Shown: piece after piece, positions 26,863 to 51,786 of the stretch
Position numbering within the stretch: position 1 is the stretch's first letter
How the letters are laid out: the number at the start of each line of letters is the position of its first letter
DNA from: Priapulus caudatus
Lineage: Eukaryota
Reading direction: 5' to 3'
Length of the DNA: 52,920 nucleotides
NCBI RefSeq assembly: GCF_000485595.1
Contig: NW_014577067.1
Location: 374,564-427,483, forward strand
Position numbers and translations under genes: made by a program
Notes under the pieces: model-generated
The model's input: only the letters and a program-made list of their open reading frames with translations
Told to the model about the DNA's origin: nothing
The model's database searches: none

Positions 26863-26901
<39 letters not shown>

Positions 26902-28128: not shown

Positions 28129-28181
<53 letters not shown>

Positions 28182-31140
28182 AACAAACACGTGCGCACGT
28201 ATAATATGTTTGTGGAATGCTATATATGATTGTTGAAAAGAGAAAATCGATGTTTGGTAATCGATGGTTGTAAATCTCAAATCTTATATATCGCCTAGCT
28301 GGCAAAGTATAGTTGTAATACATATATATATAGTGGTAAATATATGGTACACATATTATATGGTACACAAATATATGGTGAATAATGGTTTTTATTGCAG
28401 ATTGCTTTTAATAAAATATTCAAGATTTCATATCTTCATGAATTTGTCTAAGTGAATCACGTATCATTATTTGCATTAGATCCAATGTCTGAGGACGAGT
28501 GCATGTTTGTGGTTATGCTCGTACGCAAATCGAGACATAACGGTTGTGACAAATATTATTATTATGAGAATAAATTGTGAATACAAAATTGAAGGTGAAT
28601 AATAAATAAAAGTAAGAATAATATATAAGACGTAATATGCATGCAACTCAAATACATGTAATATAGTATCAACATATATCGTGTATCATATATCATACAG
28701 AACAATGTATATTATAACACACACGCGTGCGCGCACGCACGCACTTATACACACACACGCACGCCCGCACGCACGCACTTATACACACACACACGCACGC
28801 CCGCACTTATACACACACACGCACGCCCGCACGCACGCATATACCGTAATTAATAATCCATGATCAAGCATCATAACTAATCACAACGTGAGTAAATGAT
28901 ATATACGCGAATTATTTATGCTTCTTATATCGTATATGGTATGTTATCAGCATGTTATGTATATACTCATGATAATATTATATGATTTGTGCAACCCACG
29001 TTCTTGATTTGATCATTTGATTCACGTTAGATTATCATTCTTCGCTGCAGTCCCTTGGATTATAAAGCATTTTCTATTCTCTTTGTGAGGTTATAATATG
29101 ATTAATTATGTTGTTTATGCTGCAGACGATTTTTGGGTTCTGCTCACTGATCTCAATAATAATATTTTATTAATAAAATTTTATTATAGAGATCAGTGGT
29201 TCTGCCACTGGTTCTGCTGCTTTACTAATTTTTATTCGCTAGGTAGCAGCACCTACCTGAACCTGAGCCTAGTCAGAGCCAAGGAGCTACATATAACATT
29301 ATATAAATTATATATAACGTTATATGTATAGCTCCTTGGTCAGAGCTACCTCTAGTCAGAGCATATAAATCAGGCAGGCATGACTCATCAGCATATAAGT
29401 CAGCATATCATCAGCATATAAGTCAGTCATATATTATTTAATTCGATTTTTACCATAGTTTTTTTTATATGTGAACAGACTCACAAGTATAATTCGTACA
29501 CACTGTGAGAAGCACTAAAGCTGTGTGTAGTCTTAGAAAAATGCCATAAGGTTATAAATTAGCCCATGCTGGTGGCCGTGTTCCATTACCAATACCATGT
29601 TATATTACCAATATAATCCTAACAAGCAAGTATTATCTTTAAAGTTCAATTTAATATATTCATAGACATTGTAATTATGGACAATATCAGTATCATTACA
29701 ATATATCCCAAATACATACAATATATTAAATGATTACAATATTTATATATTATAATATAATTATAAGTAGTAACACCACATTCAATCTGTGCCATATATA
29801 GTTTTTCAATAATTATACTGTAACTAGTTAATAAACACCTGATATATTTACACCAGGTCACATAAAAATAATTACAAATCTGAAATGTTAAGCCTTATAA
29901 CCCCTCTTAAGATTTCATTTGATCTAAAATGGATATGAATGTACTTATACAGAAATCAGCATTTTGAGGTGCCATATGAAATAACACCGCATTGTACATT
30001 GTGCATGTACATACACCCAGACACGGTTATTTCGTTCAGTTGTCAGACACGATTGGTCTGGCGATGAGCTCCTTCATGATCTCATTGCTTCCGGCGTAGA
30101 TTGGTTGGACTCGCGCGTCGACATATGCCCTGGCTATAGGAAATTCCCACATGTATCCCCAGCCACCATGAAGCTGAAGACATTGGTTTGCAATCTTGTT
30201 CTGCAGGTCAGATGCCCTGAGAAGACAAACACAGGAACGTTATACATTTTACACACTCACACACGCATGAAGTATATACTTGCCCCAGAGTGCCTCTTGC
30301 AATACAACATCACAGACCCTAAGGTATATCAGCTTGAAGTGCTATTACTTTGAATGCTGTTCTGGCTTTCTATTTCTGATTTTTATTTCTCTTTTTTTTT
30401 CAGTTACTAATGTCCTTTGTCTTTAATCAGTTAATAATCTCCTTGATTGTTGACAATAGCACCAATGTATGCAAATTTATAAACGTCAGTAACTTCAACA
30501 TTGTTGATCTTCAGCCCATCTTATGACTCAGTGCAGACTTTCAACACTTCTGGTTAACCTTGAGAGGCCATATTAGCCTATATTCATGAGTTAGTTTAAC
30601 AAAAGAATAATTTCGCAAGTTATAATTGCAATGATGATAGTGAATACCATCTTGACAAGAGTGTGCATATAGGAAAAATCTTATAGCTATTTGGAAATAG
30701 ACACAGAGCACAAACAAGAGATCAGCAGCAATAGGGATGCAGTGGTTTAACACCAAAAAGTAGCTTACAGATATTTAGCCATGGAGACTGAGTAGTTATC
30801 TAGAGTCTCATGCTGATGCTGCTGCAAGCACTGGTCGTAAAATGCTCTCATCATACATATTTCACTCTTCATCTCGGCCAGCTTGTGTTGAACTGTCTGC
30901 AATTAAACAAAATAATGGCATAATGACATAGCCAATATAGCTTCAATGAATGATTTACAATATATGTATATATATATAATTTTAAATATCAGTATTGAAC
31001 TCACATGTTGGTATGTAAAAGGTGTTTGAATAAGAATATATACTAGAAAAACACGGATACATCTCTTGACGTGTTACGTTTGACTGACAAGGATGACTGG
31101 GGAGGTTTTAGAACGAAATGTCGTACCTTTCGATGTAAAT

Positions 31141-31185
<45 letters not shown>

Positions 31186-32306
31186 ATATATATACTTATC
31201 GTGTAAGAGGATTATTAAACGTCAACTACTTACACCGAGTGATGCTGCGTCTCGCACGTGTCAAACTCCTCCTCGTCGCAGCTCTCGCCACCCGAACTGC
31301 TATCGGTCGCCTCCGAGTCGAGCACCCTCTCCAGGTGACCGAGGTTGGCGGCGAGGCTGCTCGACACGCAGCTGATCTCGTCGCACAGGTCGTCGCCGAG
31401 GGCGACGGTGACCTGGTCCTCGCTGTGAGCGCCGCGACTGCTGTACAGCCGCTGACGCTGCGAGCCGTGGGCGCTCTCCAGCTTCCGCACGAGGTTGACG
31501 AGGGCCGCCGTCGACAGGTTCTTCACGTCCTCGCTCTGCAGCAGCTCGGCGTGAAAGTCGCTGCTGTTCGGCGCGCTGCAAGTCCTCGTCGTTGATCGCA
31601 CGCACGACTGCAGGTTCTTGCGCTGGTGCTGAACGAACGCCACCAGCTGTTCGCGCACATGCGTGTTCGTCTGCATCGTCTGCAGCCGCCGCAGACGCTG
31701 CAGCAGCCGCTCCGCACGTCGTTCCAGGTAAACCTGCCGCTTGCCGGCGTCCGCGAGCCTATCACACACGAGAGACTTCAGCAAGGTCAGTTCGGATTGA
31801 TCGTCAGTATCCATGGCACTCTCGTCCAGCTGTGTGGGAGAGACAGCTTCTGGCTGCTGAACGGTGGTCCTATTCTCGGCCAAAATGCTGCTGGCGATTG
31901 GGGATGACGAAGAACTGTTGCGTTGTCCCGTCATGTCTAGCTTTGGATTGCCGTTTGTGTTAGAACCACGTAGGTTACACGTCGCTTTCTGAATTCTATT
32001 TCCTCCCGTTTTCTGGTCGACGTCCATTGTGTTCACAATGCCAAAATTGTTGTTGGTCGCTGCAAGCTTCCGCAGTAGAGCCGGGATGTTGGCTTCTTTC
32101 AACTGACTGTAACCGTTGTGCGGCCGCACCAGAATCTGTGCCTTTTGAGCCTGCACGGGAGAGACAGCCCGCTCGCTTGCTGTGGGACTCTCACAGTCCC
32201 GCTCCCTATCAGTTTCCGGCGAGCTCTCAGATGGCGGCGGTGATGGAGGAAGTCTGAAACCTGAATGCACGGACTGCCTAATTGCATCCGACAATGCAGG
32301 CGCCAT
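12811..32306 (-). CDS. KANSL1: KAT8 regulatory NSL complex subunit 1 (KANSL1/NSL1); exons 32306-31234, 26047-25251, 25126-25003, 24262-24180, 22916-22469, 21453-21330, 20608-20350, (18531-18503 tentative), 14201-13940, 13007-12811; ~1130 aa
   Basis: MAPALSDA start; LLQRLRRLQ coiled coil; [59 protein letters not shown]-like CAARTRP; PEHE domain [51 protein letters not shown]. Splice phases checked; only the link between 20350 and 14201 needs a small extra exon or an alternative donor. Confidence 0.93.
15705..17048. mobile_element. Helentron/HINE-like non-autonomous repeat with nested hAT-like element (~16176-16517) and internal duplications
   Basis: Start GAAAGTGTCAGTGACACTGTAGCTCACC and end CCATGGCAATAGCTCATCTTGACGATGTCAAGGCGAGCTAAAAA (hairpin plus A-run, (GGAC)n) recur at ~35536-35890; 63-bp tandem duplication ~16310-16461; ~150-bp duplication 16518/16820. 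Confidence 0.65.
17849..20169. mobile_element. HINE-like repeat with nested insertions
   Basis: AACAAGAG..GCTCATCTGA start; end GCATCTGACTTCGTCAGATGAGCTAAAAA; 3' part (20025-20169) recurs at 35050-35202. Whether both ends belong to one copy is inference. Confidence 0.5.
18696..19163. mobile_element. hAT-type MITE
   Basis: TAGTGTTG...CACCACTA; 8-bp TSD GGAATTTC; ATCGAT-rich subtermini. Confidence 0.8.
20909..21307. mobile_element. hAT-type MITE
   Basis: TAGTGTTGTCA...TGACATCACTA; 8-bp TSD TAGGTAGG. Confidence 0.85.
22209..22406. mobile_element. hAT-Charlie-like MITE
   Basis: CAGGTGTTCTTAACC / GGTTAAGAACCACTG; TSD CGCTAGAC/TGCTAGAC. Confidence 0.8.
26863..28840. repeat. Microsatellite cluster: (CAGG)n ~26863-26928, (CA)n 28131-28181, (CACG/CA)n 28718-28840
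   Basis: Directly visible simple repeats. Confidence 0.9.
30036..30896 (-). CDS. ACADL: ACADL exons 8 (30896-30769) and 9 (30216-30036, stop codon), lying inside the first coding intron of KANSL1
   Basis: [33 protein letters not shown] | [59 protein letters not shown]; canonical splice sites; not in the ORF track. Confidence 0.95.
31146..31194. repeat. (TA)n microsatellite; a second one at 43158-43196
   Basis: Directly visible; both lie in inferred breakpoint intervals. Confidence 0.9.
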
Positions 32307-33833
32307 CGCGAAAGGACGGGACAGCCTCAATGGCCAGCGTGAACACATACAAGTGGTAGAATAGCAGATGCAAGATTCTCCACCTGATGATCCATAACGC
32401 CCACCTGGATGTCTCCCACCTGGTGAACGAAAATGCACATCAACATATAATTACAAATATGCAAATGCTTCAACAATATCACAACTCTGACTTTCGGAAT
32501 TATTTCAAGTTAAATTAGGCTTTAATTCTGCTGCAGACTAAATTACATTCTTCAATATGAACAATACATAAACACCAGATTTTAAAAATTGACCATGTGC
32601 GATGATGAACGATGCCACTGTTTGAGCTACTTCTTGCATCAGTGACACGAGAACATTTGCAGGGCCTAATTCAGGCCATTTTTCATACTGAATACGGGCC
32701 TCCCAAATTACGTCCCCTAGCAAAATGCCCAAATTACAAAATTCATAAAACGCCCAAATTAGCAGAGCTCTGATGCAGATCTCCATGTTTCTATCGTCAT
32801 GTTGTAGGCACTGTTTTATAATAAAATGCTCATATAAGATCTATAATCTATTATCTGAATAAAATGTGTCAACCAAACGTCCAATTTAACGTGATAGATA
32901 AGTATATATACAATTTCCCTGTACGGTTCCCCGATTAGGCTAGATACATAGATTAAGCCCCGATTTGTAAATGGTTATTCCATGTACCACAGAGAGAGCG
33001 ATAGTGCAATTCATCCTCTCTTATATTAATGATTACAAACCCCACATTCCATGTTTATAAAATGCAAAAAAAGTTCATAAAGCAAGTTATGTGAGCGAGA
33101 GACAGATCACAGAATGGCATCATCTCAATGTGCACATACGGTAATCAATAATAAAACACTATCTATAAACATGTTAAATGTCAAAAATATTACACCTGTC
33201 ATAGCTTTCCAAATACAACATTTATTCACAATGATGACAATAGTTGTAGGCTGAAGCATAATTTAGACAATTCACAGAAATTATATGGAGGCCAAAGGTG
33301 ATAACAAAGTGGCAGTCAGCCTGTAAAAGTATCTCTGGAACTAGCCACAAGTTCCCTTCTCGCTTAACACTACATTGGCCTACGACGTGCAACAGTCGGA
33401 GAGCCTGGTCGGTTTACTCTGGAACTATAATTAATGTGAGTACCCTTGAAAGTGGGTGACGAATCAGATGACGTAACATCATGAGTTATTAATACGCTGT
33501 GGCTATATGGCAGGCAGCCGGGCAGTCTTCGATTTCCTAAATGCCCTTAAACCCTAACCCTTGTTTACTTGAGATAATGCTGAAAATTAAAAAATGCCGT
33601 GCATTTAGGAAATCGAAGACCGTGGCCGGCAGCCGTCAGATATATGCCGGCTGCCGGGCATATAGACACTCTGTTATTAATATTATTGCGTCGTATACAT
33701 ACACTACGACACTAGGCCTACAATACATGCATTGCTACGACTCATGATGACTCGAACACGAGTGGCGTTTATCAAGGAACGAAGGCGTAACAAAATATCT
33801 CTGGCATGCATGCTGTTGTCCAAACTAACGTAC

Positions 33834-34450
33834 CAACGACCCTCCACGCCTGCTCCCCCAGGAACAGGATGGGTCTGTGGGGTGAAGTGGAAATTGCTCA
33901 GTTGCTAGACCGTTCTTCTTCCTTGACAAGAACTAGGTTGATGACAACGGCGTGACAGCTTTCAGTCTTCCTCTGTGCATTTTAATAAACAAGCAAATTG
34001 ACAACAATTTCAAAGTGCACAGTGAGGTAACTCATGCATTTAGGCATTTTTATTGACGTTTGTAAAGATACATAAGCCAAACGTAAATTTTTGGGCGTTT
34101 TGCAAGCTGGAGCGTACAGAACAGAAGACCGCGAGCGGGTTACAAATACGCGTAGGACAAACCACGTGATCAGGCCACGTCCCCGATGAACAAACAGGCG
34201 AATCAACATTTTTGGCAAGAACACATAGTAGCGATTTCCACCTTCTTACACGTAGTACAGCACATTATACTCACTCCACTGTAACGTCTCTGTATTGTTT
34301 TCACTAGTGCCGTCCGAATAAGCCAGAAATTTCCGCGAACTAGTATCGAAAATGTGCAATATCAAACGCCTCAATAATGGCGACGAAATGAAAGTCCGTA
34401 GACCTTCCAGACAACGAAAACGGGCGAGATAGGATGTGTGACGTCACATT
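33834..34450 (-). promoter_or_regulatory. Putative KANSL1 promoter and non-coding 5' exons (~34390-34275 and 33972-33834)
   Basis: CpG-rich; TGACGTCA at 34439-34446; YY1-like AATGGCG at 34376-34382; minus-strand donors GTGAG (34274) and GTACGT (33833), acceptor CACAG (33973). Confidence 0.55.
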
Positions 34451-34889
34451 AGTAAGACCCCTCTACGGCGTATTTGGTGATTGGTTACGAAGAAACTGCT
34501 CACTGTTACAATAATTGACTACCTCCCCAATAAACTTACAGTTATATGCAAATTAATGTAAAAGTATAGCTTACCAATTTTAACATATAAAAAATATAAA
34601 TTTTGAACACATTTTTATATTTAAATAGTACAACTTATTTTAGCGAAATTATATTTTGCCTGGATAAAGTTGCAAGTTTCATCGCCATATGGGGGTGGCA
34701 GCAGAACAAGTATCCGCCCATGTACAAAGGTACATGCTACAAGCGCCCTAGAAAATTTCGCGGGGTTTGCGTTCGGATTTCGGCCGACTTGGATTTTGAT
34801 ATATGAATGCAAGCAACTTCTGCATAGTCTCCAGTAAACATTATATGAGTCTGATACATACACATGCACGCACGCACACACGCACGCAC

Positions 34890-34920
<31 letters not shown>

Positions 34921-36179
34921 TGATCGCAAATATTCGAACCGAAAATAACCGAACCGAAATGTGAAAACCGAAAACCGAACCGAACCGTGAAGTTGTGATT
35001 CGTTGCACCCCTACCTTTGACCCCCAGCTTCGACATCCCAACTCGTTTTGACGATCCCCCCGACGTCCCGAATATCATGACCGTACGTCGAGCGGTTAAG
35101 ATTTGTGCCCAACTGTTGACGCACGCACGCACAGACGGCCGGACGGACGCACGCTCATGCGATTCTACAAGCTGCATCTCACTATGTCAGATGAGCTAAA
35201 AATGAAATGACCGCCGATTTGAAGGCAATCCGAAACACCCGACTCTTATAAGATGATGCAGTCCTCCTTTCTTGCCATGGACGTGATAAACGTGGCAATC
35301 CATGGTTTGAGTTGTCCAAGTGGCGCCAGTCAGTTTCATAGCAGCAAGAGATTTAATTGATATTGTGACTCACTCGTGACTAAAATAGGGTTCGGAAGAG
35401 TTATTAGGAATTTGGCACTATTGCTTTATCAGTTTTTGCTAATGGGTGAATCTATACTAAGTAGTCCTATAGTAATATTGATATTTATACTTATACAAAA
35501 CATTATAAAAATAAGTATAAATATTAAAATAAATGAAAGTGTCAATAACACTGTAGCTCACCACAAAAAAGGACACAAATGAGTGAGTGAGAAGAAGTCA
35601 GTTTTAATTGAGCAACCATCGACGTACATTATAGAAACGAAATTGCCATCTGTATATCGTATAAATAATTTATAAACCAAAATGAATCACAATTTGTGAC
35701 GGTAGATGGCGCTATACCCGCTTTGATGTTTCTTAGCATAAATCATTATATCATAATAATAATAGTATAAATCATAATATGTTCATAGCAGGAATTTTGC
35801 ATTATCGTTGACCCTAGCCAAATGTTGACGGACGGACGGACGACGACCCATGGCAATAGCTCAGCTTGACGATGTCAAGGTGAGCTAAAAAGAGGATATT
35901 CAAAAATCAACCCTTTGCATATAATTATAACGCATGTGAACCAATTACATCACAGGCCACATAACCAGAATCATCCTGCTAATTGCTACCAGATGTTGCC
36001 TGCTCTATCACTACTTCCTACACATACCAAAGCCACCCAGACCGATGACAAACGTCTTCATGAGTAGAAACTGGTTCTATGATACCAGACAGTTTATATA
36101 TAGAGATATATATATAGTACCAGAAGTTAATAAAGACAAAGGAGTTTGACACGTATTTGGTACTGATTTCACTACATAC

Positions 36180-36632
36180 TCGGTCTGTAGCCCTTGGCTG
36201 GAAAGTGGTTTTGCGCAACTTCTCAGATCGTGCGCTTTGAGTGGCGCCACCGTCGTTGTAATCAAACTGTAGTAGTTAGTTTTAAAACATTTTTTTTTAA
36301 TATTTCTAATGGTGATTGAACCATGAAACTTTTTATGTAGCGCAATTATAACCTAAATTAGCTGAAAATAACCCTAGAACCTAGAGGCTACTGTTCCTTT
36401 AAATTAATAAATAAGAAACACCCTCGGTCTGTAGACCTTGGCTGAAAAGTGGTTTTGCGCAACTTATCAGATCGTGCGCTTTGAGTGGCGCCACCGTCGT
36501 GTAATCAAACTGTAGTCGTTAGTTTTAAAACATTTTTTAATAATATTTCTAATGGTGATTGAACCATGAAACTTTTTATGTAGCGTAATTTTAACCTAAA
36601 TAAACTGAAAATAACCCTAGAACCTAGAGTAA
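36180..36632 (+). mobile_element. Two orphan RIGHT ends of a TTAA-flanked (Kolobok-like) element
   Basis: ~205-bp direct duplication (36180-36390 / 36423-36630); first ends CCTAGAGGCTACTGTTCCT|TTAA at 36398; second is interrupted by another element. Confidence 0.75.
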
Positions 36633-36635
36633 AAC

Positions 36636-37308
36636 TGTTAGGGTTAGAGACGAATTTTTGGTCGAAATTTCACTACCCACTTTATTTGATAGATCGCACC
36701 CATGGGCAGCTATGTATACGTAGAAATTATGTATGTACCCTCCCAAACAGATCCAAATCCCCTCATTAGACAATTATTAACACAGGAATCATGGAAAATT
36801 TAGAAAAGTGCTAATATCTCCATCGTTAGAAATGCTGACTTGTCAAACGCTATTTCTCGAAACTCACAACTCCGATTCAATTTTTTTGTTACAGTTTAAT
36901 GCTAACATATGAAAGGAAAAAAGTGTCCCTGTAATTTTTTTTAAATATTTTATTTTAAAAGTTATGGCTCTTTGTTTACGAAATTGTTGCGTTTTGAAAT
37001 TCACTACAAATTTTCGTACATCTTTTCAACTTCTTTCCTAAATTAAAGCATTTAAACAAAATTCCAGGGACACTTATGGTTAAACGTTTAGGTCCCAACT
37101 CTGCTGTTTCAGAGAAATAACAAAAAAGCATGTTTTTGTATAAATTCACAATTTTTGCAGTCACTTAATTAGCAATAAATTTAAAAAAAAATTTCATCGA
37201 GAGCGTAGAGAGACATCTCTCGTATGTATACATGGATATGAGTTTGATTGAATTAGATGAGTTATGTTGCAATGCCCTTTACAGTGTTACACGTCCATAA
37301 CCCTAACA
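36636..37308. mobile_element. Inverted-repeat element inserted in the Kolobok-like right end
   Basis: TGTTAGGGTTA ... TAACCCTAACA termini. Confidence 0.6.
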
Positions 37309-37525
37309 GTATCCTTAAAGAAATGTTGTAAATAAATCGTGACAAACTATTTTTTAATAACGAGTCCTACACGACGTGAATGCTGTGATTTGCTCTTCTA
37401 TGTAAGTCTATATTACCACATCAACTTCCCAAGCCACATGACTGGCCAACGTGAGCCAAATGACTGGCCAATAAACACTAACCTCGATGGGGAGTTAGTT
37501 CAAACCAAGATTATAATTTTCATAT

Positions 37526-37828
37526 TATCAGAATTAGATAATAGGAAAGGAGTGTGACTTCAATAAACAAGGGAAATTCGTCATTTACTAGCCTTAGAAT
37601 ACCTACTTAGAATGGAGAATCGTGTCGTACGTTTTAGTCTGTATCTCCGGATTGCGGGCGTATACAAGGAAACGATTTCGCACGATGCTAGGCGAATGTA
37701 CCGTGTACGATTTGAGCTCAAGTTGGTTGAGTTACGCGCAGTAAATCGTAGGTATTCGAAGGCTAGTAAATGACGAATTTCCCTTGTTTATTGAAGTCAC
37801 ACTCCTTCTCTATTATCTACTTCTGATA
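37526..37828. mobile_element. MITE with ~80-bp terminal inverted repeats
   Basis: GGAGTGTGACTTCAATAAACAAGGGAAATTCGTCATTTACTAGCCTT and its exact reverse complement at ~37758-37805. Confidence 0.8.
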
Positions 37829-37968
37829 CTATATATATTCATATACCAAGTTATACGAATGGCTGGTGCACACATACTGTAACATGTGTCACATGACTGG
37901 CCACAGTGTTTGAGTAGAAAGCTTGCCTTTCCAAGCCTCATGAATCATTGCCAAGACGGAAACCGCAC

Positions 37969-40062
37969 CTGTGCTTTCAAGCCAAGTTTCTTCAGTTTCT
38001 TGCCCTTCTTGAACCCTTCCATACCCTCCTCCACCAGAAACAAGCTGATACCACGGGCCGCACTCTTGGCCGTTGGGTCTGTTACTGCTACGACAATAAC
38101 AACGTCTGCCATGTGACCATTGGTAATGAAGACTTTGCTTCCATTAAGAATCCAGCCATCTCCATCTTTTTTGGCATTGGTTTTAATGCCTTGAAGATCA
38201 CTGTTATGGAAAAGTAGAGCTGGAAGATATTCTTGAGAAATATATGATCTATACAAATATATCTGTTCACGTCTATTTCATACCTAGTACATTGAAAATT
38301 CCACATAACTCCTTCAAGAGCCTATTATGATATAGGTTTAATTATATCACTACTATAAATTAACTTTTTTCTATATATACTGGTAAAAGTTGAAGCAATG
38401 GTAATATTGAAGCTGACAACTATTTTGTGAACTGACAGTTTGAAACGGGGGATTTTTGGCCCAGCATGATAGCTGCAAAGGTGACATGACAGCTTGGCTT
38501 GGACATTGCACATGCTGGGCACATTACACAGCAAATAACTCGGAAACTAACGGTAGAGAATGTTTACTCTCACCTGCCTGCTCCAGGTTCTGTCATGGCA
38601 ATAGCTCCTATTTTCTTTCCAGCTGTCATGGCAGGCAGGAACTTCTCTTTCTGCTCGGTAGTTCCGTAGTGACATATATAGGGCATCACAATGTCTGAGT
38701 GCAAGGCCCATCCTGGGCCTGATGCGCCAGAATACCCCCTGGAATTAATTATCAATACAATTACAGACAGGTCGGTCAATCCATAGTGCTTCAAGGACAT
38801 ACGATTTGTACCAGATGCACCTTTGAAACCATTTTTCTCATTATTTTATCCTAACAAGTTGGTACACAATTGCTATAGTTATTTGATAAGTACACAAGCA
38901 GCTTTGTTTAAACATATAGTTTATAGATGATTTTAAAATTAACAGCATTCCTGCAGAATGGTTGCATTGGTCTGTCACTAGCTGTGCACTGCAGTCATGA
39001 CTAACATCCATGGGCAGATTAATCTTCTCCCAAACTACTGCCCTATTTGCAACCATACTTACCATCCATGCTCAGTGGGGGTAGATAGAATGTCAGTGAG
39101 ACCACCTCCTTGCTTACACATTTAAGCCAGTGTTATTGATGTAGGTAAGTCAGTGTCATTCTAATAACTACAGGTGACATCTATTAAATCTACTAATAAG
39201 ATGAGCGAGAACCCATTAAATTCTCATCTAATATGAAGGACGTATTTCTTACCAAATTCAACTAGGAAGGTTAATTACTGCATTATAAGCAAAATCACAA
39301 ACTCCCACACAAGCACAATCACACACATGTGCGCACATAACCACATTTAAAACAGTAAAACACATACACACAAATAGCTATTAACTCAGATAAGTAATTA
39401 TACTTACTGCTCATCCCACACGATAGAGCTTGTGAGGATATCACTGCCAATGCCTCCCTCCTCTGCAGGTGTACTCACTCCCAACAGTCCAGCTTCACCC
39501 GCCTTCTCCCACACCTCACGGCTTACTTGTCCATCGATCTCCCACCTGCAACATTTGCCATTTTGCATTTGTCACATAATATTACTATCAAGAGGTAAGG
39601 CCTACCTAAGGAGGTATACCTAAGGTGTTATTAGCTCTTGTTACTAAGAATAAAACTTACTACTTAATTTCAAGATTCGCCTGTTTCTGTCACTCACCTG
39701 AAACATGCAGAGTTATACGACCAGTATAGCATCTTGGGATGCGTGAAAACAAAGCTTCATGTCAATGATGCGGCATGACCAACAATAGTGGTAGCGAGCG
39801 AATCACATTTGATTCTAAACAGCGCTGCACAAAATTATGTCCAGAAAACAGCACTAACCAAACGAGCGACTTCTCAGTACCCGGGTCCAACAACAAGATA
39901 CGTAAAACTCACTGGTCGTGATAGGGCATGACCTCCTCTTGGAAGAAACGGCGCACATTCTTTCGAAAAAGATCGTGCTCATCGGAGAAAATACGTCGAG
40001 TGCCGATGTCGGTGAGCTTTTCCGACTGGCCCGGCTCGGGCCGATCCATGTTGCAGCATCCT
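37969..40062 (-). CDS. ACADL: ACADL exons 2-5 (40062-39913, 39545-39408, 38738-38574, 38200-37969)
   Basis: KLTDIGTRRIFSDEHDLFRKNVRRFFQEEV; WEIDGQVSREVWEKAG; GPGWALHSDIVMPYI..GAIAMTEPGAGSDLQGIKT..LNGSKVFITNG..GISLFLVE..KLGLKAQ; phases 2,2,2,0 consistent. Confidence 0.96.
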
Positions 40063-40425
40063 CTAGACAAATTAATAGTGTCTATTAGATGCAATTAACC
40101 TCTCCAGGTAAACAGGAATAAATGACATACAGCCCATTACAGCGTCATATATTGCACAAATATATACAACAATTAACCAGTCTCTCGTTTGCTACAATAC
40201 ACGTAGACAATCACAACACTGTCAGCAAAGATGAGAAATGGAGTTGATATTAATTATTATTAGGTTTCTAAAAATCGGAAGATTTGGCATTCTGCCACTA
40301 TGCAGTCAGTCTGACGATCTAGGTGTTGAAAGTGCACATGTATGTGTGTAGAACTATTTAACACAAATTTGGAAGCTGGGCAGAAAAGAACAAAAGCAAC
40401 CATATCTTTTAAGGCACATGGTTAA

Positions 40426-40682
40426 AGGGAGAGTTTACTCTAGGTTCTAGGGTTATTTTGAGCTAATTTAGGTTATAATTACGCAACATAAAAAGTTTCA
40501 TGGTTCAATCACCATTAGAAATATTTTAAAAAAATGTTTTAAAACTAACGACTACAGTTTGATTACAACGACGGTGGCACCAATTAAATTAGGTATCTGG
40601 TAACAAATACGTGTGGGTATAGACGATTTGTTATACAGTAAGTACAGTTGTATGCAGTAAAATCCTAGAGGATACCGTCCCT
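40426..40682 (-). mobile_element. Complete short copy of the TTAA-flanked Kolobok-like family
   Basis: TTAA|AGGGAGAGTTTACTCTAGG...CCTAGAGGATACCGTCCCT|TTAA; one half matches 36250-36398 and the other 44189-44285 (both reverse complement). Confidence 0.8.
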
Positions 40683-40808
40683 TTAAAAAAAATCAACCAG
40701 AAATGTACCCTCTAACCCCGAGTATGGGTCAGATCAAGAGTAGATAATAACACATTAACTATGTGTTATTATCTACTCTTGGTCAGATAAAAAGAGATAG
40801 AAATATAC

Positions 40809-40900
40809 CAGTGAAAAAAAATACACGGGGGCTCGGGGCGATTTTTATGCACTCGAGCTTGAAAAGTAGCCCCCGAAAAATAAATAATATTTTTTTCCCT
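40809..40900. mobile_element. Minimal hAT-type element
   Basis: CAGTGAAAAAAAATA / TATTTTTTTCCCTG; 8-bp TSD AAATATAC; longer relative inverted at ~45670-45821. Confidence 0.8.
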
Positions 40901-41753
40901 GAAATATACTAATATAGCATTATGCATTAATTATGTTATCAATTGGCAAAATACCAGGTGTAGTGTGCGTGATAGCAATACATAATGTCAGGCTGTGATG
41001 ACATTGCAATTGGTTATTTCTCTTGCCTAAGTTCCGTAGTGTATGATGCCGATCTAAACATTGAAAAAATGGTGTCACGAGAGCATCAATACGCGAGGAG
41101 AGGCTTCTCTCGCCACGATACACATGCACTAGGAGTCTATGACAAGTGGGCTGTCAACATCTTCACCACACTTCAATCAAGGGTTATTGTACACACTTTA
41201 GGTATGTTGAGTGACATGGGTTAAAGGCATGGGGAGGTCCTTGGTACTATTTATATATTGATATTATGTGGTACCGTTTTATTGACACACCAAAGTTCAG
41301 ACTGACCAAAGTTCAGATACTATATATATCATGTATATGCTATAACCAGAGGTTCATTTGATATAACTGATATGAGAAACCTTTAAACCCTACACTGTAT
41401 GGCTCAGGTTGTAAATGCAATAAAATAGATAGACGCTGTTAAAACATCAACATTAATAACATTTATGTTATGATTGCCTTTGCTGCATACATTTCTCTAC
41501 ATAAAGTGGCTCATACAGACTTGATGTGCCACTTAAAATTTAATTACACACACAACATGGTGACGTTGGGGAAACTATAATCTCCGAATGAAAACTTTTC
41601 ATAGTTCAAAGGACTATAACAAAGCTAGACCAAAACTAAAGACCACTGCCACAGGAGTTTTTCAAACAGAAAAGCCAGTCCAGCACAAAGTTCAAAAGTA
41701 CTGACTCTGTCAAAACACTCACCTAAATACAGATTACACTTAGTACAGCTCAT

Positions 41754-42005
41754 AGAGTCTATGTCCCCCAGGGTACTGCCAGAACGTACCATGGGTACGG
41801 TTCGGTATACCGGAACGTACCCTGGTAACTATTTGATATGGTTAGGGTTAGGGTTAGGGTTAGGGAGTAGGCGTAGGCGACTCCCTAGACTCGTTAGTGG
41901 AGTAGGCGAGGTACAGTCCGGCATATTAGATAGTACCAGGGTGTTCCGGTATACCGGACCGTACCAAGGGTACGTTCCGGCAGTACCCTGGGGGACATAG
42001 ACCCT
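41754..42005. mobile_element. Palindromic MITE with internal (TTAGGG)4
   Basis: ~63-bp arms TCTATGTCCCCCAGGGTACTGCC../..GGCAGTACCCTGGGGGACATAGA; TTAGGG x4 at 41842-41865. Confidence 0.8.
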
Positions 42006-43154
42006 CTCAGCCTTAGTACAAAGTACATGCACCTCGTACACATACGTATGCAGACATTTTTATATAAACCAGTATCATTATTTATGACTCAACAAATTTA
42101 AACGTGGTTGCTTGAACATTGGTCAATAGTTAGTAGTGAAAAATAAATATATCTTTACATTGGGAGCGCCCACGCTACTCTAATCCAAAGGCAAACCCAA
42201 GAATGGATTTATGCCAATCATTATCATGGTAGCCTGAACTGAACATCTACGCATAAATTTTACTAGGTTCACATGCAGGCCATTCTAGCTGTCTTTGGCT
42301 GGTCTATGTTGTGCCATGCTACCAGAACTTTCAGAATGCTACTTTCAATTTAGACAGTGTGTTGACTTAAATTAAACAATATCAAAAACTAGTGAGGTCT
42401 GGAGCATTCTATATGGCAGATGAAAATGTTACTTTGGGTAGAATTTTGAGTGTACCATTGGTTGTATATTTTTCATCTAAATCTGGAGTTAAAACATACA
42501 GAAAAAACACACGAACTCTTGGATATTTGAAATGATTTTAGGAGTTATGGTGTAAGGAACAAGAGGTCTGAGCTATAACACCACAGGCCATGTTTCACTT
42601 ATTGCTCAATAGCGATAATATTTCTCCTCAAAGTAAAAAATAGGTGCATTCCTTCAGGGGAATACCGGTGGTGAAGGGGAACTAAGGGGCACCAAACCAC
42701 CTGGCTTGCTTTCACTACCAATATGTCATCATTGTGTTTAGGTTTTTTCAGGCTCTAACCTGGAGACCAAAAATTTATCTAAAGTTAGCTTCTGTTTACA
42801 TATGGATTATAGAATGAGATATATACAAAAAGATCTTCTCTTTGTTCATCAAATTTTTGCTGTAGCACCCGAGTTCATTGTGAACTGCTGTTGAAATAAG
42901 GCTGGATGCAGGGTGAACTGATTGCAGGAACTAGGAGTAGGACATTTTGTATACAACACATGTGAATGTCAATGAGCTGTCTAATGAACTCATGTGATAA
43001 CCATATATATGTTACACATGTCAATGTCCTGCCTAGCACTAGAACTATAGCCCTTTGAGTTTGATCTGCCAAGAGCTATAGTTCTAGAGCTATGTCCTGC
43101 CCAATTTGTCGGTAGCTGACTGCATATTTATCATATAAATTTTAATTACGGCAA

Positions 43155-43204
<50 letters not shown>

Positions 43205-43289
43205 TATATATAATATATATTATTTATAATTTTTAAATCCTGCTTTTGAATGATATCAAGCATCCTGTTGCTAGTGTGCACATTCATAC

Positions 43290-43705
43290 CTGCAGACTTG
43301 AGATGGTACGCTTAAATGCCTTTCTTTGCTTAACATAGTCCCTAGTCATCTCAAACATGGCCTCAGAACTGGACACACCTACTGCTGCCACGATCAGTCT
43401 CTCCTGTGGAAGCTCCTACATGAGACATAATTCATTAATAAACCCTTGTTTCATTATAAATGTCACGAATAGAATATGATATTCGGTTTGTACCTAGGAT
43501 GAAAAACCTTTTAATCAGGTATCGGCCTAACCTAATTCTAGTTTAGCATATGCAGAGCCATCACTAACAATTGGTTTTAACACTGAGAATATAGTCGAAT
43601 GACCTTCACTCTCACCTTCATCAGATACATAAAGCCATAGTTTTCCTCTCCCAGCAGTGCACTCGCAGGCAACTTCACATCTTCGAAGAACAGCTCAGCG
43701 GTGTC
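43290..43705 (-). CDS. ACADL: ACADL exons 6 (43705-43616) and 7 (43415-43290), located upstream of exon 2 in transcription direction
   Basis: DTAELFFEDVKLPASALLGEENYGFMYLMK | ELPQERLIVAAVGVSSSEAMFEMTRDYVKQRKAFKRTISSLQ; continues exon 5 (..LKAQ, phase 0) and leads into exon 8 (TVQHKL, phase 0). ELPQERL carries the LCAD-type catalytic Glu. Confidence 0.95.
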
Positions 43706-43826
43706 CTGAAACACACACACGTCAATAAGTAGCCATTGCTAGATAAGCTAGTGTCAAAAACCATCCCAAAAGCATTCAGATTGGTCTACAAGAGCTATAC
43801 TACTAGTATATACCAACAGCCATTAA

Positions 43827-44343
43827 AGGGATAGTAGACTCTAGGATTTTACTGAATACAACTGTACTTACTGTATAACAAATCGTCTATACCCACATGT
43901 ATTTGTCATCAGATACCTAATTTAATTGTTATAATTAATTACGCATCACTGCTACGAAATTTGAACGGCGCCATGACACCCGCGACCGTGCTGCCACCCT
44001 GAAAAACTTGCGTATTTGCCAATTTATTTTGCACGTTACAGACCGAGGGCTAATCACAAAGATGCAATTATATTCATACCTAAATGCTATTTAACCGAAC
44101 GATGTTCATTTGAGGACAAATTTATCCATAATATAACTGAAACTATATGTCGTTTATAAGATATTACAATTAATCCTTTTGCTTTTAAAGGGACAGTAGC
44201 CTCTAGGATTTTACTGCATACAACTGTACTTACTGTATAACAAATCGTCTATACCCACATGTATTTGTCACCAGATACTTAATTAATTATTTACACATCA
44301 ACGCTACGAAATTTGAACGGCGCCATGACACCCGCGACCGTGC
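43827..44343 (+). mobile_element. Two orphan LEFT ends of the TTAA-flanked Kolobok-like element
   Basis: TTAA|AGGGATAGTAGACTCTAGG at 43827 and TTAA|AGGGACAGTAGCCTCTAGG at 44189; ~160-bp direct duplication. Confidence 0.75.
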
Positions 44344-47300
44344 TATTATTTTGCCATAAGGTAGTATGATTATGCATGACACGAAGTATTTGCTAGTCTA
44401 GTACTGGAGAAATTAGCGTTTGGATGCGCATTGTGAGCCTTTAAGTTACGTTGCACCCATGCTGGGTTTAAAAATTAAAACTATTTTACATTGAAACTAT
44501 AGTTAGAATGCCTTGTTTTTATTGTTGAATCCCGCAGTTTTTTTAAATAAACGCTGCGGTGGTAAAATATCTGAACTACTTCACCCCCGGAGGAATGATG
44601 TGTATGAATCTTAGCGAGTATGACGCTCCAGCTGATTGTAGTTTTTCGCACGTGTTTTGCATAGCAACCGTTACTATGCAATTGCAGGCAAACGCATGTG
44701 TTTACACCTTACTTATCATGACCATCTGTATGTGATAAAGGCGAGAGTTAACCTCGTCATCGCTGGGCTTTGTTAGCCGAACAAAAACTTCTTCGGGAGA
44801 TAACGTACGGGAGACGCGATCCCTGTCGCGCCACCTTCCAGTTGCTGTGTATGCGAATTTACCACTTGGCTACGACACACGACGGTAAATAACGTGAAAA
44901 CCATGTCGTGCAAAAGTACGATTTAAGTCAAAACGAAGAATGCTACGCGGTTTGTAATACTACCGGAAGATGGAATAAGGACCAGTGAACAAAAGAAGCT
45001 CATGTTTGTATACATTTTATATTTTTACTCACATCAAACTCGTACGACAAAATTTAGTGAAATCAGTGCCAAATACGTATCAAACTCCTTTGTCTTTATT
45101 AACTCCTGATACTGATAGTACCAGTCTATGTATTGTACCAAGAGATAAATAATATACACAGAAAGGAGATTTGCCAAAGAATGGCCGGTAGTCAACATTT
45201 GATAGTCTGAAGTATAAACTGTGTTGAAGGTTCTGAATTGTAAGTTAATGAACTATTTGTCAGAATTCTCATAGGATGTTTAACTAGTACAGGAACAATA
45301 CATCACAAAACCATAGCCCATGTAGTAACACAGTTGAGATTTTATATAATAGGCTATTAATAGCACACGAGCTTGGCATTGCTTATAATTTTATTGTTCG
45401 GTGAACTGAAGCAGCATGTTGGTTCAAAGCAGTTTTGTCAAATTTTATAGGGAAAAGCATTTTGGCAACATTTTTAAATGTTTGAGAATAAGATCCAATG
45501 AATAATTAACACGACATTATAAATCCCTGCCTAAGCATTACTGGTCATATAAGTTTTTATAATCTAGTGATGAATAATAAATCCAATAAAATAAATTAAG
45601 GCACAGCAGCCAGTGATTTCGTTACGAATGCCAGCATGATAGCCCATTACACTGATAGCCTAGCAGTCAATTTATTTTTTGGGGGCTACTTTTCAAGCTC
45701 GCCCGCATGAAAATAGCACTCTAAAATTTGGTTTCCATTGAATTCTATGCAATTTTCCGGGGCTCTTTTTGGCATTTCGGGGGGCTAAATCGCCCCGAGC
45801 CCCCGTGTATTTTTTTCACTGCACTATATAGTGTTAATTAATACTGTTATGCTCAAGCCTCAAAAACACGGATACAATTATATTTCCTCGCCCCTTTCTG
45901 ATTTACTGTTGTAGCATTACACTTAGCAAAACGTTTTAGCTACAAAACTCTAGGACACAAATAACCCCAAAATATCCGCCAAATCGTTGCTCTCAGGTGA
46001 AAAAGCGAAGCATTGTATTGCAGATATAGAAGGATTTTAAAAGATAGCGGCAAGAGTAATAGTACCTATCAAACATTCATGAATGAACCTTTTCATTATC
46101 TTTTATAGTAACAGGCCCAAATGCTTTTGCAAGAGGCCGTGGCAGAGTGCGGGGGGGGGGAGAATCCCCCCCCCTAAATTTTTTTTCAAACCTAGATGTT
46201 CTGAGATGCAATCTGGTCTATTCTGAGCTGTAGTAAACAGACACATTTGAATTACAGTATGGTTCTTTTTTCCAATTTGGTTTCTCCTGGGCCTAGATTC
46301 ATCATTGGTACGTAAGTTAACGTCCATAGGCAGGCATCCTACGAAATGCGTACGTAACGTTCCTGAGGTTAATTCATCAAGCCGTCAGGACTAGCCCGTG
46401 CGTAGGCATATCGTTAATGAGTTGCACATAACCCCGTTAGTAGCAGCCGCATTCTTTCCTCGCTGCAGTATTTCATGTGACACCGTTTGTTGCCATACTC
46501 GCAGATAGGGCCTGCATACCTCCCAAAGTTATACTCGGCCAGGTTTTTAACGCATTCTAACTCTAAAACTGTTACGTTAAAAATTCTTAAAATATTTACA
46601 TAAACAGGCAAGACGGTTGTCATTTTGAATACGATTGACCTAAGATACCTTGACTCGATTGCAACACTGGCTGGTCAAATATAGACAATATGACGCGGGC
46701 GATCTAGCGGATGTGGTAGCAACTTTCGTGTGCATTATTGCTACTGCACTAAATATTTTGATTGTCCTCTCAGGAGTATACAGCAGAATGCCACCGGATT
46801 TGTATAGAATGCGGAATCTTCAGTGCTCGAAATAAGCGTTGTCCGGTTGTCCGAGACAACCAGAAATTGCGCCGGACAACCTAACCAGTCTGAGACATTG
46901 TCCGGTGGACAACCAAAAAACACTATCTCTAACCCTTACACTAACTCTAAACCGACTCGGCTATCTTATATACGCGTGGTACCCAATTAATCTATGGTGT
47001 ATAACCTTTTGCTTTCAATATTTTACATCTGAACTGACAATCAATCCCATGCAACCAACTGGTATAGGCTAGCTGGCACAATAATGTTCAGTTTCATACT
47101 TCAAATCCGAGTGTTTTCTAGCTCATCAACAAATCTTAATCGTGAATTAAATCGTGAATAATATAAAAATATGGGACCAGCTGCTATTTCCAACACTGGT
47201 ATAATATCATATGTCAGGTTTTCTGATTTATGAGAGGTGAACTCGATTTGAAACCAGCAAACCAGCAAGTTTCCAAAATTTTCTGGGGAAGGACCCCCAT

Positions 47301-48463: not shown

Positions 48464-50770
48464 TTTGTTGTGGTTATCTATATGACAAGTGAACGACATC
48501 CTGTCATTTGCCGCAGTGAAACTGAGGAATATTTTGTTGACCCAGTTTCCAGTACCAAAAAAAGGTTTCCGAGTCTTTCAGCACCGGCAGAGCTTCAACT
48601 GTCTGTTATTGTGCCTGCATACAATGAGCAAGAAAGGTGTAAGTACCACAGAGGACCTAAGGTTGACTTACTTACATCTAAGTATTATGAGGTAAAGATG
48701 AAGATTCATTTTTGGCTGGAGTGGAGGGTATAGATGTTACTAGTTGTCAGCATGTTTACATCAGTGACAGTATGTTTAGCACCCATTTCAAGTGGTTAGT
48801 TGAGCATTAACCAACTTCTGCAATATATCTTGTTAATTAATGTGATGCATAAAATAATAAATGCCATAGACTGTAAGTGTCACTTTGTCTGTTTTAGTGC
48901 CCAAGATGATGGATGAGTGTCTGGATTACTTGGAAGCTAGAAGAGTAAGTACACATGCAGTGATAGTGTATATGGTTCGGTTAGCATAATTGATGTCATT
49001 GGTGTCTATTGTATGTCATTTTCATACAATAAATGGAATGGTTCTTATTTTTATTCCTTGGTGAAAATAAAATAAAATGTAGTTTCATTTTTTGTGCCAT
49101 TTCAATTGTACTGTCTGGCTGAAAAACCAAGACCCTAATACTACCATCTTCGATTTACAGAAAGAAAGTGAACATTTTCAGTATGAAGTTATTGTGGTAG
49201 ACGATGGGAGCAGTGACAAAACAACAGAGGTTGGTATATGATGTGTGTGTGCTTGCTCTGCTGAATTGTTAAGCCTAGCAGGTATTTAATGTCCAATAGT
49301 TGCTAATATATAACATTGCTATTGTCTAACTCAGTATATATTGTCACACCTTTTAGGTCGCACTGAAGTATTCTCACAAGTTTGGTACGGATAAAGTTAG
49401 AGTTCTGACTTTTGAGAAAAATAGAGGAAAGGGAGGAGCAGTGAGACTAGTAAGTAAAGTCAAAACACACTTAGGTAGGAAGTTTCAATCTGTATTGTAC
49501 AAGATATAATCTACAACTGTGGAAAACTAATCTGTAATACAACACATTTTGTAAAGAATATTGTAAAGAACACATATTGTAAAGAAATAAAAAATGATAG
49601 CAATGTTGAAACAGTGTTATTCTATTATAGGATTATGGTTAGAATTTCACCAAATCAATTTTGCTTTATATCTACCGGTGCTCTCAACCCCTATTACATA
49701 TATCTGTTTATCTAAGTGATAATATTGTAATATGCATTTATCCATTCATTCATGACAGGGTATGATGAGTTCAAGAGGAGAACATTTGCTGTTTGCTGAT
49801 GCTGATGGTGCATCTAGTTTTCCTGACTACTCCAAAGTGGAAATGAAAATGAGGAAAATATGTGATAGTAATAAGGTAATTCCAACAAATATTTTTAGCC
49901 ATCTTGCAAAAAAACATCATTGCTGTATGGAGAAGACTCACATAATAGACTCAGGCAGCAGCAGCCACAACAGCAATGGTAACAGATGTTACAGGAGTAG
50001 CAACAGTTGTTGTAGGAGCAGCAGTGGTAGTAGTAGCCACAGGCAGTAACAACAGCAGCCATTCAATTGAGTAATTTTTGGTCTTGCAGACTAATGAGGC
50101 GATAGTTTGTGGATCAAGGGCTCACTTACAAGACGAGGCTGTTGCAACAGTGAGTGTGATGTTACTTCTCGTTTATGCATGCACCAGATTTAAATTTTTC
50201 TGCTTCCTTATAAAGTTTCACCAAGGAAACTTCACAATTGTGACATTCTTAGGCGTTCTGCCATCGTCTGTTCTATATTCTATTATATAACTATCTAAAA
50301 AATATCTTGGACTTTACAAAGAATATATGTCTATGCTGGTACAATGGCTATGCTGGCCCTCCTTAAAAGTCAGAGACTATTGTGCATAACGAGGGGAGAG
50401 GTGTTAAATGATGTTGCCACTTATTGAGTTATTGAATCTGCATTGCTTCAGTAGTTGGTTATCTGTAATGTACAGTCACAAAAAGTGTGAACCTAATGAT
50501 ATTTCTGCCTTACGCTTGACTCTAGAAAGTCAATCGTTGTATGAATATTTTTTTCTCAATAATTAGCATTTCAAGTATCCATTATCATTGTAAGTGTCCA
50601 TTATCATATTGATTTCAGCGTTCCTTATTTCGGACTTTGTTGATGCACGGATTTCACTTCATGGTCTGGTTGCTATGTGTAAGAGGCATCAGGGACACCC
50701 AGTGTGGCTTTAAGCTTCTCACCAGGCAAGCAGCTCGGTCAACCTTCAGTAACCTTCATGTCGAACGCTG
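48464..50770 (+). CDS. ALG5: Dolichyl-phosphate beta-glucosyltransferase ALG5, exons 2-8 (48464-48638, 48898-48944, 49161-49229, 49357-49449, 49759-49875, 50090-50149, 50619-50770); terminal exons not found in window
   Basis: LSVIVPAYNEQERLPKMMDECLDYL; YEVIVVDDGSSDKT; NRGKGGAVRLG; LLFADADGA; CGSRAHL; GIRDTQCGFKLLTR..LHVERW; GT2 family, phases consistent. Confidence 0.96.
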
Positions 50771-50835
50771 GTGAGTGTTAGCGAGTGCCCGGTCCACAGG
50801 GGCATTTTATACTCTGTATTTATAGAGGATCATGC

Positions 50836-51697: not shown

Positions 51698-51786
51698 CGC
51701 TTTGAAACTGCTGAAGCAGTTCCGAGAATACGCTGACTTCTCAATAAATGTTGAGGCAAACGGTGACAGATTCTAAACGCAGACAT
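51698..51786 (-). CDS. ACADL: ACADL exon 1 (mitochondrial presequence)
   Basis: MSAFRICHRLPQHLLRSQRILGTASAVSK(R): Arg/Ser/Leu-rich with no acidic residues; donor CG|GTAAGC is phase 2, matching the acceptor of exon 2. Nine exons total 1299 nt = 432 aa. Confidence 0.85.

What the first reader, a model, noticed from the sequence alone, without database searches (positions are those of the whole stretch)
37969..43705. ACADL exons 6-7 lie upstream of exons 2-5
Exon 5 ends ...KLGLKAQ|GTGCG at 37969. Its continuation TTCAG|DTAELFFEDV starts at 43705, 5.7 kb in the wrong direction on the same strand. I found no copy of exons 6-7 between 37969 and 30896. Joining 5 to 6 needs a downstream donor to reach an upstream acceptor (back- or trans-splicing) or a DNA block swap.
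Basis: seen in the sequence. Interest (0 to 1): 0.9.

Follow-up and report, generated by a model that had tools for sequence, protein, structure and literature searches.

The report
Priapulid ACADL exons out of order
In this Priapulus caudatus scaffold two exons of the fatty-acid enzyme gene ACADL lie upstream of the four exons that precede them in the messenger RNA, and this is most likely an ordering error of small unique pieces between high-copy repeats in a short-read assembly, not a new kind of splicing.

Summary
Its continuation, exon E, starts at 43705 after TTCAG. No other copy of E or F exists in the window.

The window is Priapulus caudatus. RefSeq models this gene as a 231-aa stump that reads through into the intron after exon D.

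Joined in canonical order, the eight exons give one open 402-aa frame. It aligns without gaps to ACADL of three other phyla.

A 1923-nt spliced cDNA contig from an independent run carries A, C, D and H. Exactly 344 nt separate D from H, which equals E+F+G. A normal linear mRNA therefore exists.

Four things point to assembly mis-ordering:
- Every block boundary lies in high-copy repeats or a microsatellite.
- No listed DNA contig bridges any boundary.
- The only two (AT)n tracts in the window flank F's donor and G's acceptor.
- The first coding exon of KANSL1 is interleaved between ACADL exons D and G.

The DNA order could not be tested directly. I put assembly mis-ordering at about 0.8 and obligate trans-splicing at about 0.05.

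The parts
39913..40062 (-).
   Evidence: tblastn; sequence; X7 cDNA contig piece 40063..39910 = record positions 102-255
39408..39545 (-).
   Evidence: tblastn; splice sites. The X7 depth of 8.69 in bin 39384-39855 fits one 28.2-deep contig over about 138 nt
38574..38738 (-).
   Evidence: tblastn; X7 piece 38737..38574 = record positions 392-555
37969..38200 (-).
   Evidence: X7 piece 38200..37968 = record positions 556-788. RefSeq model P0002 reads through this donor
43616..43705 (-). Lies 5.7 kb upstream of D in the window
43290..43415 (-).
43158..43196 (.). (AT)19 tract, 94 nt downstream of the exon F donor; one of only two (AT)n loci in the window
31146..31194 (.). (AT)13 T (TA)11 tract, 249 nt upstream of the exon G acceptor and about 40 nt downstream of the KANSL1 exon 1 donor
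30769..30896 (-). ACADL exon G, 128 nt, [10 protein letters not shown]...SMAKY
   Evidence: the X7 depth of 7.17 in bin 30416-30887 fits the same contig
29426..30216 (-). ACADL exon H (last coding exon, stop at 30038-30036) plus 3'UTR
   Evidence: X7 piece 30215..29426 = record positions 1133-1923
31233..32348 (-). First coding exon (aa 1-372) of the KANSL1-like gene. In the window it lies between ACADL exons D and G
   Evidence: P0121 is 100% identical; X7 contig 19 is spliced at 31234
34664..37894 (.). High-copy repeat field between the KANSL1 exon 1 island and the A-D island; word depth 1e3-1e5 against about 15 for unique DNA
   Evidence: depth table; repeat copies
40422..40688 (-). Full copy of a roughly 265-nt MITE-like element bounding the A-D island. 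Half copies lie at 36236-36633 and 43823-44288
   Evidence: depth 9e4
51698..51786 (-). Candidate ACADL exon 1 (inferred only): presequence-like peptide, GTAAGC donor, phase fits exon A
   Evidence: scan; not confirmed by any read

Best explanation
The two ACADL exons at 43.7-43.3 kb are most likely misplaced by the genome assembly. In the animal the gene would be collinear (A-B-C-D-E-F-G-H) and spliced in the ordinary way.

Shown:
- The exons are in the stated order in the window.
- They form one intact frame when read in canonical order.
- A linear spliced cDNA has the exact canonical spacing.
- Each exon group is a small unique island (0.6-2.6 kb) bounded by high-copy repeats or an (AT)n tract.

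Inferred: a short-read assembler and scaffolder threaded these islands through the repeats in the wrong order. This also put KANSL1 exon 1 between ACADL exons D and G. F and G would be neighbours across a single (AT)n tract, giving an intron of about 0.4 kb.
For: 1. Intact gene. In canonical order the eight exons give 402 codons plus a stop, with no internal stop. The product aligns gap-free over 394-395 aa at 69-72% identity to 3 of 3 homologues tried. All splice sites are AG/GT.

2. Canonical mRNA. X7 record 18 (1923 nt, one contig, depth 28.2) has A at record positions 102-255, C at 392-555, D at 556-788 and H plus 3'UTR at 1133-1923. The 344 nt between D and H equal E 90 + F 126 + G 128.

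3. Islands in repeats. The listed X1 contigs cover only 29000-30953, 31487-32625, 32849-33367, 33636-34851, 35174-35560, 37895-40449, 40874-41776 and 42092-43149. Between them word depth is 1e3-3e5 against about 15. No listed contig of 3 DNA runs bridges a boundary.

4. (AT)n tracts. The only two (AT)n tracts of 8 or more repeat units in 52.9 kb lie 94 nt after F's donor and 249 nt before G's acceptor. My post-hoc chance estimate is about 5e-5.

5. Second anomaly in the same stretch. KANSL1 exon 1 (32348-31233) lies between D and G, and G-H lie in KANSL1 intron 1 on the same strand.

6. Source assembly. P0002 and P0121 both come from one 1,178,442-bp RefSeq scaffold. The only P. caudatus assembly described is unpublished, with 59,586 scaffolds and N50 of 210 kb (PMC10280001, passages read).

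7. Annotation. RefSeq could model only a 231-aa stump. No Priapulus protein of 105 aa or more carries exon H.
Against: - No read or contig seen here shows the alternative DNA order. The DNA adjacencies were not resolved, because the tables were cut to the best-supported rows, which are dominated by repeats.
- The window has no N, so the wrong joins would have to be sequence-closed.
- I found no direct repeat pair at the candidate breakpoints that would explain a simple two-repeat tangle. The shared copies at 36.1-36.6k, 40.4-40.7k, 43.8-44.3k and 45.05k are inverted relative to each other.
- Restoring two tidy, non-overlapping genes needs two adjacent swaps. One move still leaves ACADL and KANSL1 interleaved.
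- That the assembly is Illumina-only and gap-filled is recalled, not shown by any search.
Confidence: 0.8

Rival explanations
1. The order is real in the sequenced animal but is a broken, possibly heterozygous or individual-specific, rearranged allele. The normal mRNA would come from a collinear allele or from other animals.
For: The cDNA run X7 belongs to a different study (P3) from the high-share DNA runs (P1), so it need not be the same animal. The two (AT)n tracts would also fit a real insertion of the 12-kb segment into one microsatellite.
Against: - The exons show no decay; all frames and splice sites are intact.
- The moved segment would carry the only copy of KANSL1 exon 1, and no known mechanism cuts and pastes 12 kb of non-mobile DNA.
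- Boundaries that all fall in high-copy repeats are what an assembler error predicts.
Confidence: 0.08
2. The order is real and fixed, and the normal mRNA is made by trans-splicing between two pre-mRNA molecules. The donor of D on one molecule would join the acceptor of E on another, after which F splices across A-D and KANSL1 exon 1 to G.
For: - A canonical linear mRNA coexists with the non-collinear reference.
- E and F have normal acceptor and donor sites.
- A 62-nt, 92% complementary pair (36116-36177 and 45052-45113) lies downstream of D and upstream of E and could pair two transcripts.
- If the candidate exon 1 at 51.7k is right, E-F would be transcribed within intron 1 (inferred).
Against: - The reference order is unverified and its boundaries are repeats.
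- An essential enzyme would depend on near-complete trans-splicing.
- The KANSL1 interleaving needs a separate explanation.
- The search 'priapulid' + 'trans-splicing' gave 9 papers, 8 listed, and none is about priapulid trans-splicing by title or abstract start (listing only).
- Reviews of non-collinear transcripts name genetic rearrangement and artefact as the usual sources (PMC4132752 and PMC4756807, abstract starts seen).
Confidence: 0.05
3. The D-to-E junction comes from back-splicing, giving a circular RNA that holds E-F-A-B-C-D.
For: The geometry fits: a downstream donor, an upstream acceptor, and flanking inverted repeats.
Against: The cDNA contig is linear. It has 101 nt ahead of exon A and continues from D, through 344 nt, to H and a 790-nt tail. 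A circle cannot carry G-H or encode the full enzyme.
Confidence: 0.01

Closest known systems
Local mis-ordering of small contigs in short-read, mate-pair-scaffolded assemblies
   Same: The unique islands of 0.6-2.6 kb are bounded by high-copy repeats and a microsatellite. Neighbouring blocks are swapped without inversion. The transcript is collinear while the reference is not, and the gene model is truncated.
   Different: There are no N gaps at the joins, and no read evidence for the corrected order was obtained here.
Genic trans-splicing in animals (Drosophila mod(mdg4) and lola type; recalled, not tested here)
   Same: The mature mRNA order does not match the order of exons in the reference DNA.
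   Different: In those genes the DNA arrangement is verified and the trans-spliced exons are alternative 3' modules. Here the arrangement is unverified and the displaced exons are constitutive core-domain exons.
Exon scrambling, circular RNA and other non-collinear transcripts (PMC4132752, PMC4756807; abstract starts seen)
   Same: The D donor and E acceptor are in back-splice geometry relative to the window.
   Different: The observed cDNA is a full linear mRNA with a 3'UTR.
Long-chain acyl-CoA dehydrogenase (ACADL) of other animals
   Same: 69-72% identity, gap-free over about 395 aa, to Saccoglossus, Lingula and Branchiostoma ACADL. The Acyl-CoA_dh middle and C-terminal domains are hit directly, and the N-terminal domain is on record for P0002.
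   Different: Only the order of exons in this scaffold differs.

Membership tests
Acyl-CoA dehydrogenase, long-chain type (ACADL) | Three-domain ACAD architecture (N-terminal, middle, C-terminal) | tested here: met
   P0002 carries PF02771 and PF02770. Exon D hits PF02770 at 6e-19, and exons F and H hit PF00441 at 5e-5 and 3e-15.
Acyl-CoA dehydrogenase, long-chain type (ACADL) | Full-length collinear similarity to proteins named ACADL | tested here: met
   The canonical join gives 402 aa with 0 gaps and 69-72% identity to 3 of 3 homologues. The top database hits are named long-chain specific acyl-CoA dehydrogenase.
Acyl-CoA dehydrogenase, long-chain type (ACADL) | Catalytic glutamate and substrate chain-length preference | not tested
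   No residue-level or enzymatic test was done.
Assembly mis-order artefact | Block boundaries coincide with repeats or contig breaks | tested here: met
   The listed contigs of X1 end at every boundary. Word depth between islands is 1e3-3e5 against about 15, and (AT)n tracts lie at two boundaries.
Assembly mis-order artefact | The transcript is collinear and the gene is intact once reordered | tested here: met
   X7 contig spacing; open frame.
Assembly mis-order artefact | Independent genomic reads support a different order | tested here: inconclusive
   X5 cover is thin, X9 cover is 4-10x and uneven, and the shown rows are dominated by repeats.
Genic trans-splicing | The non-collinear DNA order is verified by independent genomic data | tested here: inconclusive
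   One search shows no bridging contigs either way.
Genic trans-splicing | Chimeric junction present in RNA | tested here: met
   A junction after D is implied by the contig's spacing. The partner sequence was not seen letter by letter.
Circular RNA (back-splice) | The junction exists only in a circular molecule without linear flanks | tested here: not met
   The contig is linear, from 101 nt ahead of exon A to the 3'UTR.

The most novel reading that the evidence does not exclude
The scaffold order is real: an essential mitochondrial beta-oxidation gene of a priapulid has exons 6-7 upstream of exons 2-5 and is interleaved with KANSL1. Its normal mRNA is built by obligate trans-splicing between two copies of its own pre-mRNA, helped by the inverted repeat pair at 36.1k and 45.05k.
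Probability: 0.05. Interest if true: 0.9.

Novelty: not a real feature. Interest (0 to 1): 0.15.

Why it matters
This is the RefSeq assembly of Priapulus caudatus. As of 2023 it was the only genome of this species and one of two for the phylum (PMC10280001), and it is used for gene presence and absence calls across Ecdysozoa.

ACADL is annotated there as a 231-aa stump, and its C-terminal half has no model. Taken at face value, that would read as a truncated or scrambled gene.

This case shows how repeat-bounded islands can be shuffled locally without leaving N gaps. Non-collinear transcripts in this assembly should be checked against long reads before any RNA-level mechanism is claimed.

If the order were real, it would be the first housekeeping enzyme gene of an animal nucleus that needs obligate intragenic trans-splicing.

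Tried and rejected
- Whole genome: none is held for this window, so extra ACADL copies elsewhere in the assembly could not be sought.
No single stretch could therefore hold both D and E.
- Second lay: gave the RNA answer, but its DNA tables were filled by repeat rows. No junction at 31.2k, 34.7-37.9k or 40.3-42.2k could be judged.
- RNA holders: none was listed on record. X7 and X8 were guesses; X7 proved to be spliced cDNA.
- Two-repeat tangle: I looked for a direct repeat pair at the breakpoints. Only inverted copies were found.
- Split element: I tested whether half copies at 43823-43928 and 36236-36402 are two halves of one element. They abut within 8 nt in the coordinates of the full copy. 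But each half junction recurs in a tandem second copy, so they look like subfamily variants. The result is ambiguous.
- Pfam: no domain in the KANSL1 exons or in P0121. Identity rests on the RefSeq name and on homologues that carry PF15275.
- Full-length Priapulus ACADL protein: none was found in the protein collection.
- Earlier notes of this scan: none.
- Bacterial promoter scan: irrelevant to a eukaryote and not used.
- Exon 1 scan: the strict version found nothing; the looser version gave one plausible candidate.
Full report
**What is in the window.** The gene lies on the minus strand. Exon D ends ...KLGLKAQ at 37969 and is followed by gtgcgg. Exon E begins at 43705 after ttcag and ends at 43616 before gtgaga. 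Exon F is 43415..43290.

tblastn with two full-length homologues places every part of the protein exactly once:

| Exon | Window coordinates (minus strand) |
|---|---|
| A | 40043-39912 |
| B | 39544-39407 |
| C | about 38737-38576 |
| D | 38202-37969 |
| E | 43705-43616 |
| F | 43415-43290 |
| G | 30896-30771 |
| H | 30215-30039 |

**Whose gene it is.** Exon D is 100% identical to a RefSeq protein of Priapulus caudatus, P0002. This is a 231-aa 'long-chain specific acyl-CoA dehydrogenase, mitochondrial-like' from a 1,178,442-bp scaffold. P0002 ends ...KLGLKAQVRFPSWQ, so the model reads through the exon D donor into the intron. No Priapulus protein of 105 aa or more carrying exon H appears among the 120 best of 402 hits; the best identity is 88%. 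The C-terminal half of the gene is therefore unannotated.

**The gene is intact if reordered.** A script joined the exons by coordinates in the order A-H. The result is 402 codons and a stop, with no internal stop. It aligns without gaps over 394-395 aa at 69-72% identity to ACADL of Saccoglossus, Lingula and Branchiostoma, 3 of 3 tried. All acceptors are AG and all donors GT; the B/C boundary shares one G. Domain hits are PF02770 for D and PF00441 for F and H.

**The mRNA is canonical.** On window:29000-43149, run X7 gave a single 1923-nt contig (record 18, depth 28.2) on the minus strand:

| Piece | Window | Record positions |
|---|---|---|
| A | 40063..39910 | 102-255 |
| C | 38737..38574 | 392-555 |
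| D | 38200..37968 | 556-788 |
| H + 3'UTR | 30215..29426 | 1133-1923 |

- B fills record positions 256-391.
- The 344 nt between D and H equal E (90) + F (126) + G (128).
- The pieces for B and G were not among the listed rows, but the X7 depth in their bins (8.69 and 7.17) is what one 28.2-deep contig over about 138 and 119 nt gives.
- The spliced structure shows X7 is cDNA.
- The contig is linear, which rules out a back-splice circle as its source.

**The DNA order is not supported by anything I could see.**
- In X1 (share of words 0.71, probably the assembly's own project) the listed contigs are islands: 29000-30953, 31487-32625, 32849-33367, 33636-34851, 35174-35560, 37895-40449, 40874-41776 and 42092-43149.
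- Between the islands, word depth is 1e3 to 3e5 against about 15.
- The A-D island is 2.6 kb.
- The unique part around E-F, between the (AT)n tract and the repeat at 43823, is about 0.6 kb.
- X5 (2025) covers the region thinly. The Hi-C raw reads X9 give 4-10x, unevenly.
- The joint and loose-end tables were filled by repeat rows.

No listed contig bridges any block boundary. Equally, none shows a different order.

**Two further clues.**

First, the whole window has only two (AT)n tracts of 8 or more repeat units. One is at 43158-43196, 94 nt after F's donor. The other is at 31146-31194, 249 nt before G's acceptor. Two random placements would do this with a probability of about 2 x (250/52920)^2, or 5e-5. 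This is my post-hoc estimate. It suggests that F and G are neighbours across one microsatellite, giving an intron of about 0.4 kb, and that the 11.96 kb between the tracts is interposed.

Second, the interposed DNA holds more than exons A-D. It also contains the first coding exon (aa 1-372, 32348-31233) of a KANSL1-like gene. That gene's RefSeq model P0121 (1049 aa, same scaffold) continues at 26046 and runs collinearly to 12814. X7 contig 19 is spliced at this exon's donor, 31234. As assembled, ACADL exons G-H sit in KANSL1 intron 1, and KANSL1 exon 1 sits between ACADL D and G, all on one strand. Two neighbouring genes interleaved in the same 15 kb, with boundaries in repeats, is what local mis-ordering produces. 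The trans-splicing reading does not explain it.

**Source assembly.** As of 2023 the only P. caudatus genome was GCF_000485595.1. It is unpublished, with 59,586 scaffolds and a scaffold N50 of 209,727 bp (PMC10280001, passages read). That it is an Illumina-only, mate-pair-scaffolded and gap-filled assembly is my recollection and comes from no call; a search for it found nothing.

**What speaks against the artefact reading.**
- There are no N gaps at the joins.
- No direct repeat pair lies at the candidate breakpoints. The shared copies at 36116-36633, 40422-40688, 43823-44288 and 45052-45113 are inverted relative to each other.
- The half copies of a roughly 265-nt MITE-like element at 43823-43928 and 36236-36402 meet within 8 nt of each other in the full copy's coordinates. 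That would fit E-F followed directly by the D side. But each half junction recurs in a tandem copy, so this is ambiguous.
- One block move leaves the two genes interleaved; two tidy genes need two adjacent swaps.
- The canonical mRNA is what trans-splicing would predict too.

**Rivals.**
- A real rearranged, broken allele, with the mRNA coming from another allele or animal: about 0.08. It needs a cut-and-paste of 12 kb that carries the only KANSL1 exon 1, and the exons show no decay.
- Obligate intermolecular trans-splicing: about 0.05. Normal splice sites and a 62-nt, 92% complementary pair downstream of D and upstream of E make it mechanistically possible. It rests wholly on an unverified order. 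The search 'priapulid' + 'trans-splicing' returned 9 papers, 8 listed, and none is on priapulid trans-splicing by title or abstract start.
- Back-splicing: about 0.01, contradicted by the linear contig.

**Verdict.** The biological interpretation is most likely wrong, and the 'block swap' belongs to the assembly. The feature matters mainly as a correction to the RefSeq model and as a warning for this assembly. A PCR from exon F to exon G, or any long-read data set, would settle it.

Noticed in passing
window 12814-32348 (-): A KANSL1-like gene (RefSeq P0121, 1049 aa) maps collinearly in 8 tblastn pieces. Its intron 1 (31232-26047) contains ACADL exons G and H and the ACADL 3'UTR on the same strand.
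   Followed up: yes
window 51698-51786 (-): Candidate ACADL exon 1: MSAFRICHRLPQHLLRSQRILGTASAVSK followed by a GTAAGC donor, in the phase that fits exon A. Its 89-nt coding part compares with the 101 nt of the cDNA contig that lie ahead of exon A. No read confirms it.
   Followed up: partly
window 48500-50800 (+): Exons of a family-2 glycosyltransferase that looks like ALG5. That name is recalled, and the only test is a weak PF00535 hit (E 2e-4, below the cut-off). If the exon 1 candidate is right, this gene lies inside ACADL intron 1 on the opposite strand.
   Followed up: partly
window 40422-40688 (-); half copies 36236-36402, 36480-36633, 43823-43928, 44183-44288: A roughly 265-nt MITE-like element with ends TTAAAGGGA...TCCCTTTAA. 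Word depth is about 1e5 in the genomic runs, which suggests thousands of copies.
   Followed up: partly
window 37515-37839: A hairpin-like element with 92-nt inverted arms (91% complementary, 141 nt apart) lies just downstream of exon D. Word depth there is 1.5e5, and other copies lack the inner 257-261 nt.
   Followed up: no
window 38101, 29663, 32443: At these places the window's letter differs from every run that covers the place: 38101 A vs G (all four runs), 29663 T vs A (X7, X1, X9), 32443 A vs G (X1, X5, X9). These are rare alleles or assembly errors. 38101 is a synonymous third position in exon D.
   Followed up: partly
window 38440-39383: The 2026 Hi-C reads and the 2025 contigs almost vanish here (0.04-0.27 per mate direction in X9 and 0.06-1.4 in X5, against about 15 in X1). 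This could be a divergent or deleted intron in other animals, or uneven Hi-C cover.
   Followed up: no
window 3150-3431 (-): An exon with a DHHC palmitoyltransferase domain (PF01529, 1.6e-12).
   Followed up: no
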